From Promethearchaeota archaeon (lineage in GTDB: Archaea > Asgardarchaeota > Odinarchaeia > Odinarchaeales > JBHLKK01), in contig JBHLPL010000014.1 of the NCBI GenBank assembly GCA_048939465.1, forward strand, positions 1 to 26,200: 26,200 nt of DNA, in the 5' to 3' direction. A program made the position numbers and the translations under genes. The stretch's first letter is position 1; each line of letters starts with the position of its first letter. The notes beneath the pieces are model-generated. The model was not told where the DNA came from, ran no database searches, and saw nothing but the letters and a program-made list of their open reading frames with translations. Shown here piece after piece: positions 8,167 through 17,854 of the stretch.

Positions 8167-9246
8167 ATGTTTAGATTTCGGGATAAGAAAACGTCTCAGA
8201 GAATCTCAAGTCATCTCAAAAAGATGAAGCTTGACATAAGGCTGATGCACGTTTGTGGAACCCACCAAGATACTCTTCTGCGTTTTGGATTGGATCAAAT
8301 ACTCTCTGACTGTGGTGTTGAGGTAAGACAAGGGCCTGGATGTCCAGTTTGTGTAACTACCCCAAGAGAAATCGAAGAAGGGATAACTCTTGCAAGAAGG
8401 GGGAAAATCATTGCTACATTTGGGGACATGGTAAGAGTTCCTGGAATAAAAGGTTCTCTTGGCGATGCTCGGGGAGAAGGATGTACCATAAAAATGGTAT
8501 ATAGCATCGAAGATGCAGTTGCTTTAGCTAGAGAAACAAGGAAAGAAGTCATATTCATGGCTGTTGGTTTTGAGACTACTGCCCCAAGTACGGCAATAAC
8601 CCTCCTTGCCAATCCTCCCGATAATTTCTCCATCCTCTGCTGTCATCGATACATTCCTCCTGCCCTAGATGCCATACTTCAAATGGGTGAAGTCAGATTG
8701 GATGGGCTTATTGAGCCTGGACATGTAAGCACAATTATTGGTGTAAGACCTTACGTAGAGATCACCGAAAAGTACGGGATACCTCAAGTTGTTGCTGGAT
8801 TTGAGCCACTGGACATGCTGATGGCGGTTTACATGCTTGCTCGTCAAGTCAAAAGTGGTAAGGCTAAGGTTGAGAATGAATACATGCGCTCTGTGAAGTA
8901 TGAAGGCAATAAACGGGCACTGCAAGTATTGAATGAGGTTTTTACTCCGTCCGAGTTTGAATGGCGTGGCTTTCCTAAGATTCCGAACTCAGTAATGAGT
9001 CTGAGAACTGAATTTGAGAAATATGATGCTAGATTGTTGTATGAAGATGAACTTGAAGATTTGGAACATGTCCAATTCGAGGAACCAGAAGGCTGTTTGT
9101 GTAGTGAAATATTGCGGGGAGTGGCCGAACCTAATGGATGTCCCTTGTTCGGAAAAGTCTGTACACCACAACGACCTATCGGACCTTGTATGGTCTCGGT
9201 GGAAGGCTCGTGTAATATCCTGTTCAAGTATAACAAGCGAGTCTAA
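8167..9246 (+). CDS. hypD: Hydrogenase maturation protein HypD
   Basis: CGTH, GPGCPVC, GFETT, PGHVS and a C-terminal 4-Cys cluster ending PCMVSVEGSC; ATG at 8167 preferred over GTG at 8155. Confidence 0.96.
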   Translation: MFRFRDKKTSQRISSHLKKMKLDIRLMHVCGTHQDTLLRFGLDQILSDCGVEVRQGPGCPVCVTTPREIEEGITLARRGKIIATFGDMVRVPGIKGSLGDARGEGCTIKMVYSIEDAVALARETRKEVIFMAVGFETTAPSTAITLLANPPDNFSILCCHRYIPPALDAILQMGEVRLDGLIEPGHVSTIIGVRPYVEITEKYGIPQVVAGFEPLDMLMAVYMLARQVKSGKAKVENEYMRSVKYEGNKRALQVLNEVFTPSEFEWRGFPKIPNSVMSLRTEFEKYDARLLYEDELEDLEHVQFEEPEGCLCSEILRGVAEPNGCPLFGKVCTPQRPIGPCMVSVEGSCNILFKYNKRV

Positions 9247-10355
9247 CATATCCTCGGGATTGGATCTCCGACAGGCGGAGGCAGTATCCTCCTTCCCCCA
9301 ACGCTCGTTTCGATTACTACACCACGAAATTCTTTGGTAACCTCTCCTATTATTCGAGCTTCTCTGCCTTTTGGATCTTCTTTCAAAGCGTTTAGAACTT
9401 CTTCTGCTTTCTGGGGTATCACCGCTATTGCCGCTTTTCCTTCGTTTCCAATTTCTAAAGGATCGATCCCCATCATTTCGCATGCGGCGCTGACCCCCTC
9501 TCTTATGGGAATCTCCTCCTCATATACTAAGATCCCAATATTCGATTTCTCACTCCACTCATTAAGTAGGTTCGATATCCCTCCTCGTGTTGGATCTTTC
9601 ATACTTACTATACCGCCAACTTCCAAAGCACGCATAACCATTTTGTTTAATGGAGCTACATCAGAGACAATTCTACTGTCGAATCCGTACCCCTCTCTAA
9701 AAGATAGCAAAGCCACACCATGGTCGCCTATTGTTCCAGATACAATTATCTTGTCCCCCTCCCTCAGATTGGAGTCAAGAATCCAACGGGCATCAAATTC
9801 ACGATACTTCTTAATCTCTGAGATGTTCTTATCTAATGCTTTACTTCTTCGACCAATCCCTGACGTATTTATTACAAACTTGTCTAACCCACCTTTTTCA
9901 ATGACCTTGGTATCTCCAGTAATGATATAAACGCCTGCCTTCTTACACGAGTCCTGCATACTCTTGAGAATCCTTTCTAAATCATCCATTGGCAAGCCTT
10001 CCTCGATCACAAATCCTGCAGCAAGCGCGATAGGCTCACCACCGACCATAGAAATATCGTTGACAGTACCGGCTACGGATAGGCTTCCGATGTCTCCGCC
10101 AGGGAAAAAAAGTGGTTTTACTGTATGAGAGTCTGATTTCAATATAATCCCATCAATAACGGCCGAATCATCAAGAGCTTCCAAAGGAACTTCGGCCCTG
10201 CTTCCGCCAAGATATTTCAATATGTAGTTGCTTATCAAATCCTGCATAACGGTGCCACCTGCACCGTGTGCCATAGTTATTCGATTTGTATCCAACTTGA
10301 GCACCACAAAATCATCTTTATTCTCTGTTGCGAGTTTCTGAATTCCTAGACCCAT
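9243..10355 (-). CDS. hypE: Hydrogenase maturation carbamoyl dehydratase HypE
   Basis: AHGAGG, DSHTVKPLFFPGGDIG, TGDTKV, DPTRGG and terminal PRIC; convergent with hypD with a 4-nt overlap. Confidence 0.96.
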   Translation of the reverse strand: MGLGIQKLATENKDDFVVLKLDTNRITMAHGAGGTVMQDLISNYILKYLGGSRAEVPLEALDDSAVIDGIILKSDSHTVKPLFFPGGDIGSLSVAGTVNDISMVGGEPIALAAGFVIEEGLPMDDLERILKSMQDSCKKAGVYIITGDTKVIEKGGLDKFVINTSGIGRRSKALDKNISEIKKYREFDARWILDSNLREGDKIIVSGTIGDHGVALLSFREGYGFDSRIVSDVAPLNKMVMRALEVGGIVSMKDPTRGGISNLLNEWSEKSNIGILVYEEEIPIREGVSAACEMMGIDPLEIGNEGKAAIAVIPQKAEEVLNALKEDPKGREARIIGEVTKEFRGVVIETSVGGRRILPPPVGDPIPRIC

Positions 10356-10389: not shown

Positions 10390-11613
10390 GTGAGTCCAAT
10401 GCCGAATAAAAGATGTGGCAAACTCTTACTTCTTGCTTGTCTCTTGCTAGTCTCAACGGTTCCAACAGTGGACTCTTTGGCATCTCCGTCCATCAACCCG
10501 ACCGACGCGTACTCTTCATTATATACAAAGAGATATGACATGACTTTCAGTCTAAATGTGGCAAACGGAGGTCCTACTGATATTAACAATCTGAAAGTAT
10601 GGATTTCGATCATAAGCAACTGGACAGACACTTTTTCACCCTATCTCCCCAATCTTCAGTATTCTAATCTAACTTCCATTAATCCCGAACCAAATGATAC
10701 ATTGGTAGACGAAAACGCAGGAAACGTGATTGCTTTTTACAACTTTTCTTCGCTGCCCTCTGGTGGATCCATCACCATTCAAATGAGTTACTCGATTCGG
10801 CTAGTAGAGGGACGCTGGCTAATTAATGAGGAAGCCGTCGGGACATATAACACATCTGACCCTGTTTATCAAAAATACACACAGCCTGACACAAATATCG
10901 AATCCGATGATTATCAAATCGTGTCTAAAGCAAGTGAAATAGTTGGATCTGAGACTAATCCTTACATCAAGAGCAAGCTGATCTATGACTGGGTTGTAAG
11001 TAATATCGCCTATACTGTTCAAGGGACTGAACGGGGCGCATTATGGGCCTTGATTAACCGGCAAGGCGACTGTTCAGAGTTTGCAGATCTCCTAATAGCA
11101 CTTTGTAGAGCCTCCGGAGTTCCTGCTAGAAAAATCATAGGCTGGGCTTTCGATGAGTTATTGTACGCATCAAAAGGCTCAAGTAAATCGTACACGGACT
11201 TCCCTGGTCATGCCTGGGTGGAGATACTAATACCTGCTTATGGTTGGGTTCTTGCAGATCCTACGTGGGCCAATGCTGGATACAATTACTGGGCATATAT
11301 GGATGCTGTTCATGTTGTTTGTATCCGGGGGCAAAATGTGACCGTATCCAACAAACCTGAACCAATTATCGAGTTTAGTTCTCTTTACTACCAGTACGAA
11401 TATTCAGGAGGATCTCCGTCAGTTACTGACTCATACACCTTTGATATTACTGTGGTTGAGCTAAACACCTTCCTGATTATTCTAGACCTACAACTAATGG
11501 CGATAACGATCGGTATTATTGCGATAATCTCAGTAGCTATCGCAATGTTCTCTAAGCGCAAAACCAAGGTTGATAACAGCTGGCACAGCACCGATAGCTT
11601 TGATAACAGTTGA
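10390..11613 (+). CDS. Secreted, membrane-anchored transglutaminase-like (TGc) domain protein
   Basis: Signal-peptide-like N-terminus; GDCSEF...CRASGVPAR, GHAWVE and W..DPT give an intact Cys-His-Asp triad; C-terminal TM helix and basic tail. Confidence 0.88.
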   Translation: MSPMPNKRCGKLLLLACLLLVSTVPTVDSLASPSINPTDAYSSLYTKRYDMTFSLNVANGGPTDINNLKVWISIISNWTDTFSPYLPNLQYSNLTSINPEPNDTLVDENAGNVIAFYNFSSLPSGGSITIQMSYSIRLVEGRWLINEEAVGTYNTSDPVYQKYTQPDTNIESDDYQIVSKASEIVGSETNPYIKSKLIYDWVVSNIAYTVQGTERGALWALINRQGDCSEFADLLIALCRASGVPARKIIGWAFDELLYASKGSSKSYTDFPGHAWVEILIPAYGWVLADPTWANAGYNYWAYMDAVHVVCIRGQNVTVSNKPEPIIEFSSLYYQYEYSGGSPSVTDSYTFDITVVELNTFLIILDLQLMAITIGIIAIISVAIAMFSKRKTKVDNSWHSTDSFDNS

Positions 11614-11629
11614 GGTGCGGTATAAGCTC

Positions 11630-11812
11630 GTGAACTACCCCGCCCCTTCCGATGGGCTTCCTGTTTCACCTATTCTCCAAAGGCGTATGTCTAACAGCTC
11701 TACGCGCAGTTCCTGCCCCCAGGTGATTCAAAACTTGGTTACCAGAGGAGTATTTAAGCGTGACGCAATTCATCTCCACCCTCCCGCATGGAGTCTTCTC
11801 GCGGGAAAAAGG
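11630..11812 (-). mobile_element. Non-autonomous IS200/IS605-family (TnpB-type) miniature element, degenerate
   Basis: Minus strand reads left-end-like GAAGACTCCA..GGGTGGAGATGAATTGC, then an internal CTTAAATA, then GGGGCAGGAACTGC...GTGAAACAGGAAGCCC..GGGCGGGGTAGTTCAC. As I recognise it, this is the tnpB 3'-end/right-end pattern (its translation starts MKQEA). No transposase or nuclease ORF is present. Confidence 0.75.
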
Positions 11813-11914
11813 ACAAACTAACGAACTAATATCTTTAATCTTCCGTGTAGAAGTTGCCTGCCTGAAACACCTTCAGGGAATGGTTGGTGGATCTTCCCAT
11901 TGTATCTAGGAGAT

Positions 11915-12688
11915 TTACAGACCTTTTAACTCTCTCTCGTACTTGTCTCTTAACTCAAAGAATCTCGCTGGTGAAATTGTCTTTTGTAGCAGCTGTTTCT
12001 CTAGCGAAGTAATCTTTTGCTTAATCATAGATGATCTCATTCTCTTGGTAACAGAAGGGTTGACCGTCACCGGAGCAATTATTTCCTCTTCAAGATCTCT
12101 AATCTCCTGATCATAGCCCCGTTTTTGCGAGTAGTAACCGCTTTTGCTGATCTCTCCTAAGACAAGTTTTGCCTGAAGGTTCCTGACTTGCGATCTAAAT
12201 TGGGCCATTTCTCTTCTTCTGGCCATCAGTAGGGCCTCTCTAAATGTAGCCGCTGTTTCTTCCTCCTTTCTAAATTCCTTGATTGGCTCAACTACTCTCT
12301 CTTCCTTGATTGGCTCAACTACTCTCTCTTCCTTGATTGGCTCAACTACTCTCTCTTCCTTGATTGGTTCAACTACTCTCTCTTCCTTGATTGGTTCAAC
12401 TACTCTCTCTTCCTTGATTGGTTCAACTACTCTCTCTTCCTTGATTGGTTCAACTACTTTCTTTTCGTTTGCGCCCAAGTAGTAATTTGCCTCGTATACC
12501 AGCCTGATTGAGATCTTTGGACCAATGCCTGGTATCTCTTGAAGTCTTTCAGGTTTAGCCTTAGCTAGAGTTTCAATACTGTTGTAACCAGCTCTCACTA
12601 GCTTCTTAGCAGTTTTGGAACCTATACCTTTGAGTATAGGCAGTTGAGTCTTTTTGCCTTCTACTGGAGCTCCCTCATACTCAATCAT
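11915..12688 (-). CDS. Helix-hairpin-helix protein with a 9-aa tandem repeat and two C-terminal SHOCT-like helical motifs
   Basis: LKGIGSKTAKKL..AGY..IETLA...LQEIPGIGPK (tandem HhH); (VVEPIKEER)x6 plus VVEPIKE; then LVLGEISKSGY and LLQKTISPARFFEL. Confidence 0.8.
   Translation of the reverse strand: MIEYEGAPVEGKKTQLPILKGIGSKTAKKLVRAGYNSIETLAKAKPERLQEIPGIGPKISIRLVYEANYYLGANEKKVVEPIKEERVVEPIKEERVVEPIKEERVVEPIKEERVVEPIKEERVVEPIKEERVVEPIKEFRKEEETAATFREALLMARRREMAQFRSQVRNLQAKLVLGEISKSGYYSQKRGYDQEIRDLEEEIIAPVTVNPSVTKRMRSSMIKQKITSLEKQLLQKTISPARFFELRDKYERELKGL
12275..12458. repeat. 27-bp in-frame tandem repeat, about 6.8 copies
   Basis: Unit TTCCTTGATTGG(C/T)TCAACTACTCTCTC starts at 12275, 12302, 12329 (C variant) and 12356, 12383, 12410, 12437 (T variant, last copy partial). 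Confidence 0.97.
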
Positions 12689-17744: not shown

Positions 17745-17854
17745 GCGGGGGTAGCCAAGTGGTTTACGGCGCAGGCCTGCTAAGCCTGTAACCCTTGCGG
17801 GTTGCGCGGGTTCGAAACTTCTGCAGAGTCGCGAAAATCCCGCCCCCCGCGCCA
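17745..17854 (+). tRNA. tRNA-Ser(GCT) with encoded CCA and a 21-nt T-loop intron
   Basis: Acceptor stem GCGGGGG/CCCCCGC; anticodon stem CAGGC/GCCTG with GCT at 17779-81; long variable arm AACCC-TTGC-GGGTT; T-stem GCGGG/CCCGC; discriminator G plus CCA. Confidence 0.95.
17817..17837 (+). other. Non-canonical tRNA intron at position 59/60
   Basis: Removing ACTTCTGCAGAGTCGCGAAAA restores the TTCGAAT T-loop; central helix TTCG/CGAA is flanked by 3-nt bulges AAA and AAT (BHB). Confidence 0.88.

What the first reader, a model, noticed from the sequence alone, without database searches (positions are those of the whole stretch)
11610..11817. Protein-less IS200/IS605 mini-element that looks like a stand-alone TnpB omega-RNA cassette with its own promoter
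Seen on the minus strand: TTTGT|CCTTTTTCCCGC, a left-end hairpin (CTCCA..TGGAG), CTTAAATA (11758-51), then about 25 nt later GGGGCAG-GAA-CTGCGC...GTGAAACAGGAAG, a right-end hairpin and GTAGTTCAC|GAGCTTATACCGCACCTCAA. Known: TnpB guide RNAs derive from the tnpB 3' end plus the right end, the guide comes from flanking host DNA, and the TAM abuts the left end; ends in TTCAC/TTCAA and T-rich TAMs are typical. Inference: tnpA and tnpB were deleted, placing the left-end promoter directly on a scaffold of about 100 nt. That could yield a guide RNA (spacer 11629 to 11610, antisense to the TGc gene 3' end) usable in trans by a TnpB or TnpB-derived repressor, guarding against its own excision (empty site TTTGT+GAGCTTATACC). 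Caveat: both hairpins carry mismatches, so this copy may be decayed, and the boundaries are inferred.
Basis: partly seen in the sequence, partly recalled or inferred. Interest (0 to 1): 0.8.

Follow-up and report, generated by a model that had tools for sequence, protein, structure and literature searches.

The report
Decayed gene-less IS605 mini-transposon (PATE)
This 183-base stretch is a gene-less miniature of an IS200/IS605 transposon in an Asgard archaeon: it keeps the transposon ends, a promoter and the core of the guide RNA used by the TnpB nuclease, but this kind of element is already known and this copy is visibly decaying.

Summary
Window 11812-11630 (minus strand) is a 183-nt protein-less IS200/IS605 derivative, a PATE. 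It was inserted 3' of TTTGT and ends in TTCAC.

- **Insertion:** two same-genus genomes have the syntenic site empty.
- **Parent:** its last 94 nt match the conserved guide-RNA (omegaRNA) core. That core overlaps the 3' end of an intact 383-aa TnpB elsewhere in this genome (contig C2, about 85% identity).
- **Promoter:** its left end carries the family's hairpin and an archaeal TATA-like box, CTTAAATA. The box ends 27 nt before the core.
- **Family:** the genome holds at least 19 such cores and at least 44 related left ends, but only one cognate tnpB and one Y1 tnpA.
- **Origin:** the same left-end/right-end junction occurs at a different locus in a congener. The deletion therefore predates this insertion, and the short form itself moved.
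- **Decay:** this copy is the most degraded member in the genome. Only 14 of 21 consensus pairs survive (17-21 in the others). It folds no better than shuffles (z -0.44, against -2.6 to -4.2). Its right-end hairpin is eroded.

Such guide-bearing PATEs were described by Dyall-Smith (2011) and Meers (2023), and this scan already reported the family on other windows of this genome. The find is real but ordinary.

The parts
11813..11817 (-). Target/transposon-adjacent motif (TAM) TTTGT, just 5' of the left end. It is flank, not element.
   Evidence: Left flanks of family members read TTTAT, TTCAT, TTTAC or TTTGT. The empty site of the C130 copy in G001 keeps TTTAT and lacks everything from the next base to TTCAC.
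11630..11812 (-). The whole 183-nt protein-less IS200/IS605 derivative (short-form PATE).
   Evidence: It is missing from the syntenic intergenic region of G001 and G002. Both halves are repeated in the genome. No conserved ORF is present.
11774..11793 (-). Left-end subterminal hairpin: arms CTCCATGC and GGGTGGAG, loop GGGA, 7 of 8 pairs.
   Evidence: It aligns with the left-end hairpin of all family copies and of full-length tnpB elements in Hodarchaeota-like and Borrarchaeum genomes.
11751..11758 (-). Archaeal TATA-box-like motif CTTAAATA (family consensus TTTAAATA). It is the inferred promoter of tnpB in the parent and of the scaffold RNA here.
   Evidence: It is conserved at a fixed distance from the left-end hairpin in almost all copies, and lies upstream of the tnpB ATG in C2 and L048. 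Promoter activity is inferred, not shown.
11727..11733 (-). Deletion junction (TTTTGAA) between the left-end 5'-UTR and the tnpB 3' end. It lies in a short TTTTG stretch shared by both parents. The predicted transcription start is about here.
   Evidence: Upstream sequence matches the 5'-UTR of full-length and long elements, and downstream sequence matches the tnpB 3' end of C73 and C2. The identical junction occurs in G001:C40.
11630..11723 (-). OmegaRNA (reRNA) scaffold core, decayed, ending in GTAGTTCAC.
   Evidence: Model R1 scores it 57.8 bits over positions 1-96. It keeps 14 of 21 consensus pairs against 17-21 in 18 other copies. MFE is -25.8 kcal/mol and z is -0.44, with a non-consensus fold.
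11630..11656 (-). Right-end hairpin remnant (11656-11638) plus the terminal cleavage motif TTCAC (11634-11630).
   Evidence: It aligns with the strongly covarying right-end hairpin of the family. Two of its six pairs are non-standard here.
11610..11629 (-). Predicted guide segment, which is flank DNA transcribed after the right end. Bases 11613-11610 overlap the stop codon region of the + strand gene.
   Evidence: The position is inferred by analogy with TnpB omegaRNAs. Among the genome hits printed at up to 3 mismatches in 16 nt, only the site itself matched closely.
10390..11613 (+). Flanking gene for a transglutaminase-like protein. It is context, not part of the element.
   Evidence: Pfam Transglut_core, E 1.4e-23. 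The ORF is listed.
11915..12688 (-). Flanking gene for a helix-hairpin-helix protein. It is context, not part of the element.
   Evidence: Pfam HHH_5, E 1.1e-13. The ORF is listed.

Best explanation
Window 11812-11630 (minus strand) is a short-form PATE, a 183-nt non-coding derivative of a tnpB-only IS200/IS605 (IS1341-type) element of an Asgard archaeon. An internal deletion across a short TTTTG microhomology removed the tnpB ORF. It fused the left end (guide region, subterminal hairpin, TATA box, start of the 5'-UTR) to the last ~100 nt of the element, which hold the conserved 96-nt omegaRNA core and the right-end hairpin ending in TTCAC.

This short form was then mobilised as a unit, presumably by a Y1 TnpA acting in trans. 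It inserted 3' of TTTGT, without target duplication, between the 3' ends of two convergent genes, after this species split from its two sequenced congeners.

As built, the TATA box would start transcription about 23-25 nt downstream, at the 5' edge of the scaffold. The RNA would be scaffold plus a guide copied from the flank, which is the design expected for a trans-acting guide of the genome's TnpB that re-cuts the empty donor site.

In this copy the scaffold helices and the right-end hairpin have eroded. It is most likely now an immobile, non-functional relic. Any read-through transcript would be antisense only to the extreme 3' end of the neighbouring gene.

Shown here: identity, boundaries, parentage, insertion polymorphism and decay. 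Inferred: promoter use, the RNA product, trans use by TnpB, and mobilisation by TnpA.
For: - **Repeat family:** the genome has 44 left-end and 17 right-end BLAST hits. Model R1 finds 19 cores in this genome, 6 and 8 in the two congeners, and 32 and 13 in two other Asgard families.
- **Parent:** C2:25969-27281 carries an intact 383-aa TnpB whose 3' end and downstream sequence align with the window's right half. It matches Pfam OrfB_IS605, TNB and HTH, and ISDra2 TnpB at E 1e-60 with the GVDVG, FENL and DRDVN motifs kept.
- **RNA structure of the family:** 13 of 21 pairs show compensatory changes across Asgard and methanogen elements. 92% of cells are paired against 35-53% when the partners are slid, and no shuffle reaches the covariation score.
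- **Empty sites:** the window's site is empty in G001 and G002. For two sister copies the empty-site joints are TTTAT followed directly by the right flank.
- **Conserved left end and TATA:**
- **Shared junction:** it is present only in the window and in G001:C40, a non-orthologous locus.
- **Transposase:** a Y1 transposase gene lies at C105:1180-1545.
- **Decay:**
- **No coding potential:**
Against:
- The TATA box is a consensus match only.
- The TAM of this copy (TTTGT) departs from the commonest TTTAT/TTCAT at position 4. Two other copies share it.
- The only tnpA found belongs to a different IS, whose TnpB is 30-33% identical. Whether it recognises these ends is untested.
- MAG assembly may hide further tnpB and tnpA copies, so copy ratios are rough.
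- Decay is judged from a consensus model. A minimal scaffold might tolerate the changes.
Confidence: 0.85

Rival explanations
1. The copy is still a working stand-alone guide cassette. The left-end promoter makes a ~115-nt RNA (truncated scaffold plus flank-derived guide). The C2 TnpB uses it in trans to cut the TTTGT-GAGCTTATACC joint if the element is excised, so restoring it by recombination.
For: - The architecture is exactly right: the TATA box ends 27 nt before the 96-nt core.
- The core is the only part conserved between distant TnpB elements, so it may be the essential scaffold.
- A catalytically intact cognate TnpB is present.
- The concept is accepted for PATEs (Meers et al. 2023, PMC10055086).
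Against: - The copy scores lowest in the genome, and 7 of 21 consensus pairs are lost, including 3 of 4 in the inner hairpin and a deletion in the long-range helix.
- It has no thermodynamic signal and a non-consensus fold.
- Conserved single-stranded bases have changed (UGGAUGAA to UAGGUGAA).
- It lacks the ~60-nt 5' stem-loop region kept by the 12 copies of the ~222-nt family.
- With an eroded right-end hairpin the element probably cannot be excised, so there is nothing to guard.
Confidence: 0.12
2. The element has been co-opted as a host regulatory unit. Its promoter drives an antisense or read-through RNA into the 3' end of the transglutaminase-like gene, or a TnpB/TldR-like protein uses the guide to repress transcription.
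For: A TATA-like box points into the convergent gene's 3' end, and no T-run follows until about 11560. TnpB-derived repressors are known (my own knowledge, not tested here).
Against: - The insertion is absent from both congeners, so it is not a conserved regulatory feature.
- The guide overlaps the ORF by only 4 nt.
- Among the printed genome hits for the guide, only its own site matched closely.
- The cognate TnpB keeps its catalytic motifs.
- The scaffold is decaying rather than conserved.
Confidence: 0.03
3. The region is not a mobile element at all. It is chance hairpins, a bidirectional terminator between convergent genes, or a small protein gene on the plus strand (the 83-aa TTG ORF at 11570-11821).
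For: It lies between two convergent 3' ends. A stop-free frame runs through the element on the opposite strand.
Against: - The repeats are family-wide with sharp ends, and empty sites exist.
- The open frames fall in different frames in different copies, the translations are not alignable, and 17-20% of shuffles are also fully open.
- Rfam finds nothing here.
Confidence: 0.01

Closest known systems
PATEs (palindrome-associated transposable elements) of Haloquadratum walsbyi and related haloarchaea (Dyall-Smith et al. 2011, PMC3119063)
   Same: Both are protein-less derivatives of IS605/IS1341-type elements made by internal deletion. Both keep near-terminal palindromes and a conserved terminal oligonucleotide, have a 4-5-nt target and cause no target duplication. 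Both are heterogeneous in sequence, outnumber the parents, and differ between strains or species. 52-bp terminal-only forms also exist there; this genome has ~47-nt ones, for example at window 7121-7167.
   Different: The host is an Asgard archaeon rather than a haloarchaeon. The 2011 work predates omegaRNA, so no guide-RNA content or promoter was assigned. Here the retained part is shown by covariation to be the TnpB scaffold core.
PATE-like ISGst elements carrying omegaRNAs in Geobacillus stearothermophilus (Meers et al. 2023, PMC10055086)
   Same: Both are minimal IS200/IS605 elements without protein genes. Both share left and right ends with tnpB elements, encode omegaRNAs that would need TnpB in trans, and need TnpA in trans. 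The TAM/TEM logic and the donor-joint re-cutting model are the same.
   Different: That system is bacterial, and its omegaRNA expression, TnpA excision and TnpB cleavage were shown experimentally. Here nothing is shown experimentally, the promoter is an archaeal TATA box in the left end, and the copy under study is degraded.
ISDra2 TnpB with its omegaRNA/reRNA (PDB 8BF8, 8EXA, 8H1J)
   Same: The cognate C2 TnpB aligns over residues 2-362 at E 1e-60 with the three RuvC motifs kept. The guide RNA derives from the tnpB 3' end plus the right end, and the guide comes from the flank.
   Different: Protein identity is only moderate. The RNA has no Rfam family and no detectable sequence similarity was sought or found with the ISDra2 RNA. 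The TAM is TTYAT-like rather than TTGAT (the latter from my own knowledge). The window has no TnpB gene.
TldR (nuclease-dead TnpB-like repressors with adjacent guide RNAs; my own knowledge, not checked in a paper here)
   Different: No nuclease-dead TnpB was found linked to this family. The cognate protein keeps its catalytic residues, and the guide has no host target other than its own flank.

Membership tests
IS200/IS605 family, non-autonomous PATE derivative | Subterminal imperfect palindromes at both ends instead of terminal inverted repeats | tested here: met
   The left-end hairpin at 11793-11774 keeps 7 of 8 pairs. The right-end hairpin is homologous to the family's covarying hairpin but eroded in this copy.
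IS200/IS605 family, non-autonomous PATE derivative | Insertion 3' of a short conserved target motif, with no target-site duplication and a conserved right terminus | tested here: met
   The window's site is empty in G001 and G002. The C130 sister copy gives an exact joint in G001, TTTAT followed directly by the right flank. Left flanks are TTTAT, TTCAT, TTTAC or TTTGT, and the right end is TTCAC.
IS200/IS605 family, non-autonomous PATE derivative | Ends shared with a protein-coding parent element in the same or related genomes | tested here: met
   The C2 full-length tnpB element and L048 (Hodarchaeota MAG) share both the left end and the right end.
IS200/IS605 family, non-autonomous PATE derivative | No protein-coding capacity | tested here: met
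   No tnpA or tnpB similarity lies inside the element. The opposite-strand open frames are not conserved in frame or sequence.
IS200/IS605 family, non-autonomous PATE derivative | A Y1 (HUH) TnpA able to mobilise it in trans | tested here: inconclusive
   One Y1_Tnp gene is in the genome (C105:1180-1545, 126.7 bits), but it sits in a different IS. Recognition of these ends was not tested. Species-specific insertion sites show past mobility.
TnpB omegaRNA / reRNA | Scaffold homologous to the 3' end of tnpB plus the right end, ending at the transposon boundary | tested here: met
   Window 11723-11630 aligns end to end with C2:27186-27281, which overlaps the last 56 nt of the tnpB ORF.
TnpB omegaRNA / reRNA | Conserved secondary structure supported by covariation | tested here: inconclusive
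   The family meets this clearly. This copy keeps only 14 of 21 pairs, folds differently and has z -0.44.
TnpB omegaRNA / reRNA | Transcribed, and bound and used by TnpB for TAM-dependent DNA cleavage | not testable with these tools
TnpB omegaRNA / reRNA | Match to a curated RNA family | tested here: not met
   Rfam 15 gives no hit at gathering score, or at E up to 10, on 11550-11900. No curated model covers this scaffold.
TldR-type nuclease-dead TnpB repressor system | Associated TnpB homologue lacking RuvC catalytic residues, with a guide matching a host promoter | tested here: not met
   The C2 TnpB keeps the D, E and D motifs when aligned with ISDra2 TnpB. Among the printed genome hits for the guide, only its own flank matched closely.

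The most novel reading that the evidence does not exclude
In this Asgard genus, and in at least two other Asgard families, a single TnpB may be served by a dispersed library of self-promoted, protein-less guide cassettes. Each would carry its own TATA box, a natural minimal ~96-155-nt scaffold and its own flank-derived guide. That would be a naturally multiplexed, trans-acting guide system. The 183-nt short form would be the smallest natural promoter-plus-scaffold unit, and some copies might be co-opted for host regulation.
Probability: 0.15. Interest if true: 0.5.

Novelty: new member of a known kind. Interest (0 to 1): 0.25.

Why it matters
The find documents that Asgard archaea (a Hodarchaeales-like genus, with Sifarchaeum/Borrarchaeum-type relatives) carry active-looking families of guide-bearing PATEs. 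In these the transposon's own left-end promoter is placed directly on the omegaRNA core.

The family gives a covariation-supported 96-nt scaffold model, a TTYAT-type TAM and an intact 383-aa TnpB. These could be of practical use for compact genome editors and for annotating Asgard MAGs, where such repeats are otherwise unexplained intergenic sequence.

The particular copy in this window adds little. It is a decaying member, useful mainly as a dated insertion (absent from two congeners) and as evidence that a very short form could transpose.

Tried and rejected
- **Rfam:** no family matched at gathering score (whole window) or at E up to 10 (11550-11900).
- **Exact-protein look-ups:** look-ups of both flanking proteins, run in the hope of strain-level empty sites, found nothing on record.
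- **Left-end scans:** a loose regex scan gave mostly noise. A stricter one still held about a third spurious rows, so the TAM is given as a consensus rather than a statistic.
- **Small protein gene:** rejected. The opposite-strand frame that is open through most copies lies in different frames, is not alignable, and also occurs in 17-20% of shuffles.
- **In-situ deletion at this locus:** rejected, because G001:C40 has the same junction elsewhere. My first junction query started just past the junction and was uninformative.
- **Membership of the ~222-nt family:** rejected. The sequence after the TATA box follows the 5'-UTR of full-length and long elements instead.
- **TldR-like repressor reading:** no support.
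- **ARAGORN:** it finds no tRNA in the window, although Rfam reports one.

Full report
**What is there**

The stretch lies in a ~300-nt spacer between two convergent genes. One is a transglutaminase-like gene (10390-11613, +). The other is a helix-hairpin-helix gene (11915-12688, -). Rfam finds nothing here at gathering score or at E up to 10.

**It is a repeat with two modules**

- Searching the window's own 1.96-Mb, 152-contig assembly shows two independently repeated ~89-nt units.
  - Unit A, the left part (11817-11729), has 44 hits.
  - Unit B, the right part (11718-11630), has 17 hits.
- Twelve copies have A and B at a fixed 136-138-nt offset. They form a ~222-nt family with a sharp 3' end (GTAGTTCAC) and a sharp 5' end that follows TTTAT-like flanks.
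- Other families share the left part but carry different, longer interiors.
- Some ~47-nt copies consist of one hairpin between the two termini.

**Parent element**

- At C2:25969-27281 units A and B are 1.2 kb apart and enclose an intact 383-aa ORF.
- The ORF has the Pfam domains HTH_OrfB_IS605, OrfB_IS605 and Cas12f1-like TNB.
- It aligns with ISDra2 TnpB (8BF8, 8EXA, 8H1J) at E 1e-60 and keeps the GVDVG, FENL and DRDVN motifs. The equivalence of these motifs to the RuvC D/E/D residues is my own knowledge of ISDra2.
- Unit B overlaps the last 56 nt of this ORF and runs to the element end.
- The genome also has one Y1 transposase gene next to a second TnpB that is 30-33% identical (C105), plus tnpB fragments.
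- The closest TnpB relatives are in Candidatus Hodarchaeota (83%), Sifarchaeum and Borrarchaeum (64-69%) MAGs. The host is therefore an Asgard archaeon.

**The right half is the omegaRNA core**

- I aligned the 96 nt before the right end from 32 elements: this genome's copies, Asgard full-length elements, and Methanosuratincola and Methanoculleus elements.
- The alignment gives a three-domain fold: helix P1, a long-range helix enclosing an inner hairpin, and the right-end hairpin. Of its 21 pairs, 13 show compensatory changes.
- On a second alignment, 92% of cells pair against 35-53% with slid partners, and no shuffle reaches the covariation score.
- The model (R1) finds cores and cognate full-length TnpB genes as follows:

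| Genome | R1 cores | Cognate full-length TnpB genes |
|---|---|---|
| This genome (G000) | 19 | 1 |
| Congener G001 | 6 | 1 |
| Congener G002 | 8 | 1 |
| G014 (another Asgard family) | 32 | not tallied |
| G024 (another Asgard family) | 13 | not tallied |

- MAG assembly may under-count the 1.3-kb elements.

**Boundaries and insertion**

- Both congeners have the same two flanking genes at 75-83% identity, with a ~118-nt spacer. The alignment lacks exactly the block from the base after TTTGT-equivalent flank to TTCAC.
- Two sister copies were checked in the same way.
  - At the C130 copy's site, G001 reads TTTAT followed directly by the right flank.
  - At the C39 copy's site, G001 reads TTTAT where this genome has TTTAC.
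- So the element starts after a 5-nt TTYAT-type motif, ends in TTCAC and makes no duplication. These are the hallmarks of IS200/IS605.

**Promoter**

- All families keep TTTAAATA at a fixed distance after the left-end hairpin; the window copy has CTTAAATA.
- In full-length elements of this genus the box lies ~55 nt upstream of the tnpB ATG. Borrarchaeum elements have a TATA-like box further downstream.
An archaeal start ~23-25 nt downstream would fall at about 11728-11726.
- This is inference from the known geometry of archaeal promoters. No transcript data could be obtained.

**How this copy arose**

- After the TATA box the window follows the 5'-UTR of full-length and long elements, not the ~222-nt family.
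- At TTTTGAA (11733-11727) it switches to the tnpB 3' end, as seen in C73 and C2.
- The same junction occurs in G001 contig C40, at a non-orthologous locus (the true orthologous site in G001 is on contig C3 and is empty). It occurs nowhere else in five genomes searched.
- The deletion therefore predates this insertion, and the ~183-186-nt short form itself transposed.

**State of this copy**

| Measure | Window copy | Other copies |
|---|---|---|
| R1 score | 57.8 bits | 82-113 bits (copies that trained the model); 68.9 bits (one untrained copy) |
| Consensus pairs kept | 14 of 21 | 17-21 of 21 |
| MFE of the core | -25.8 kcal/mol | -35 to -44 kcal/mol |
| z-score of the core | -0.44 | -2.6 to -4.2 |
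| Fold | non-consensus | consensus |

- The window copy also has a 1-nt deletion in the long-range helix, and conserved loop bases have changed.
- With the guide appended, z is 0.06.
- The right-end hairpin, which TnpA needs, is eroded.
- The G001:C40 short form is much better preserved.

**Guide**

- The 20 nt after TTCAC (11629-11610) overlap the neighbouring ORF only at its stop codon plus one base.
- Among the genome hits printed at up to 3 mismatches in 16 nt, only the site itself matched closely.

**Rivals**

- A small protein gene is excluded.
- A TldR-type repressor reading has no support.
- A still-functional guide cassette cannot be excluded, but it is unlikely for this copy.

**Comparison with the literature**

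- Dyall-Smith et al. 2011 (PMC3119063) defined PATEs as IS605/IS1341-derived, protein-less elements with near-terminal palindromes, made by core deletions. These include 52-bp terminal-only forms.
- Meers et al. 2023 (PMC10055086) state that PATE elements often encode omegaRNAs that would need TnpB in trans.
- The window element is therefore a new member of a known kind.
- Earlier notes of this scan reached the same reading on other windows of this genome. I reached mine before reading them.

**Verdict**

Noticed in passing
window 7116-7167 (+): A ~47-nt 'terminal-only' PATE. TTTAT (7116-7120) is followed by the family's left-end sequence and hairpin, then a degraded terminus (TGGTCAGC instead of TAGTTCAC). 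It has about 25 similar copies in the genome and resembles the 52-bp terminal-only PATEs of Haloquadratum.
   Followed up: partly
window 6916-7040 (-): A right-end-like remnant ending in GAGTAGTTCAC at 6916. It gives a weak R1 hit (15.3 bits) and is 64% identical over 126 nt to the sequence just downstream of the second TnpB (C105:2720-2845). It is probably a fragment of the other IS family's guide-RNA region. It lies head to head with the 47-nt element in the 6803-7324 spacer.
   Followed up: partly
window 17745-17799 (+): Rfam reports a tRNA match (33.8 bits, gathering 29) of only 55 nt, with 19 model positions missing after the anticodon arm. ARAGORN finds no tRNA in the window. It may be an intron-containing, split or truncated archaeal tRNA, and the anticodon loop would read GCU.
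   Followed up: no
own genome, 13 copies of the R1-type mini-elements (e.g. C39:12673-12893, C130:5158-5380): Nine of the 13 copies have a frame with no stop (or only one at the very first codon) across the whole element on the opposite strand, against 17-20% of mononucleotide shuffles. The open frames differ between copies and the translations do not align. This looks like composition (few TTA, CTA or TCA on the element strand) plus shared ancestry, but the excess was not fully explained.
   Followed up: partly
own genome C105:991-2845: A tnpA (Y1) plus tnpB IS605-type element sits immediately 3' of a ~47-nt terminal-only PATE that ends in TAGTTTAC. This suggests insertion next to another element's right end, which resembles the target motif.
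   Followed up: no
window 8155-10355: Hydrogenase maturation genes lie next to the locus: HypD (8155-9246, +, E 1.4e-133) and an AIR-synthase-related, HypE-like gene (9243-10355, -).
   Followed up: no
G024 (another Asgard family), e.g. G024:C104:7234-8412: Several close TnpB homologues (67-71% identity) in this genome each show one in-frame stop (mostly TGA) inside an otherwise full-length match. This could mean pseudogenes, recoding or the search reading slightly past the gene end. It was not examined.
   Followed up: no
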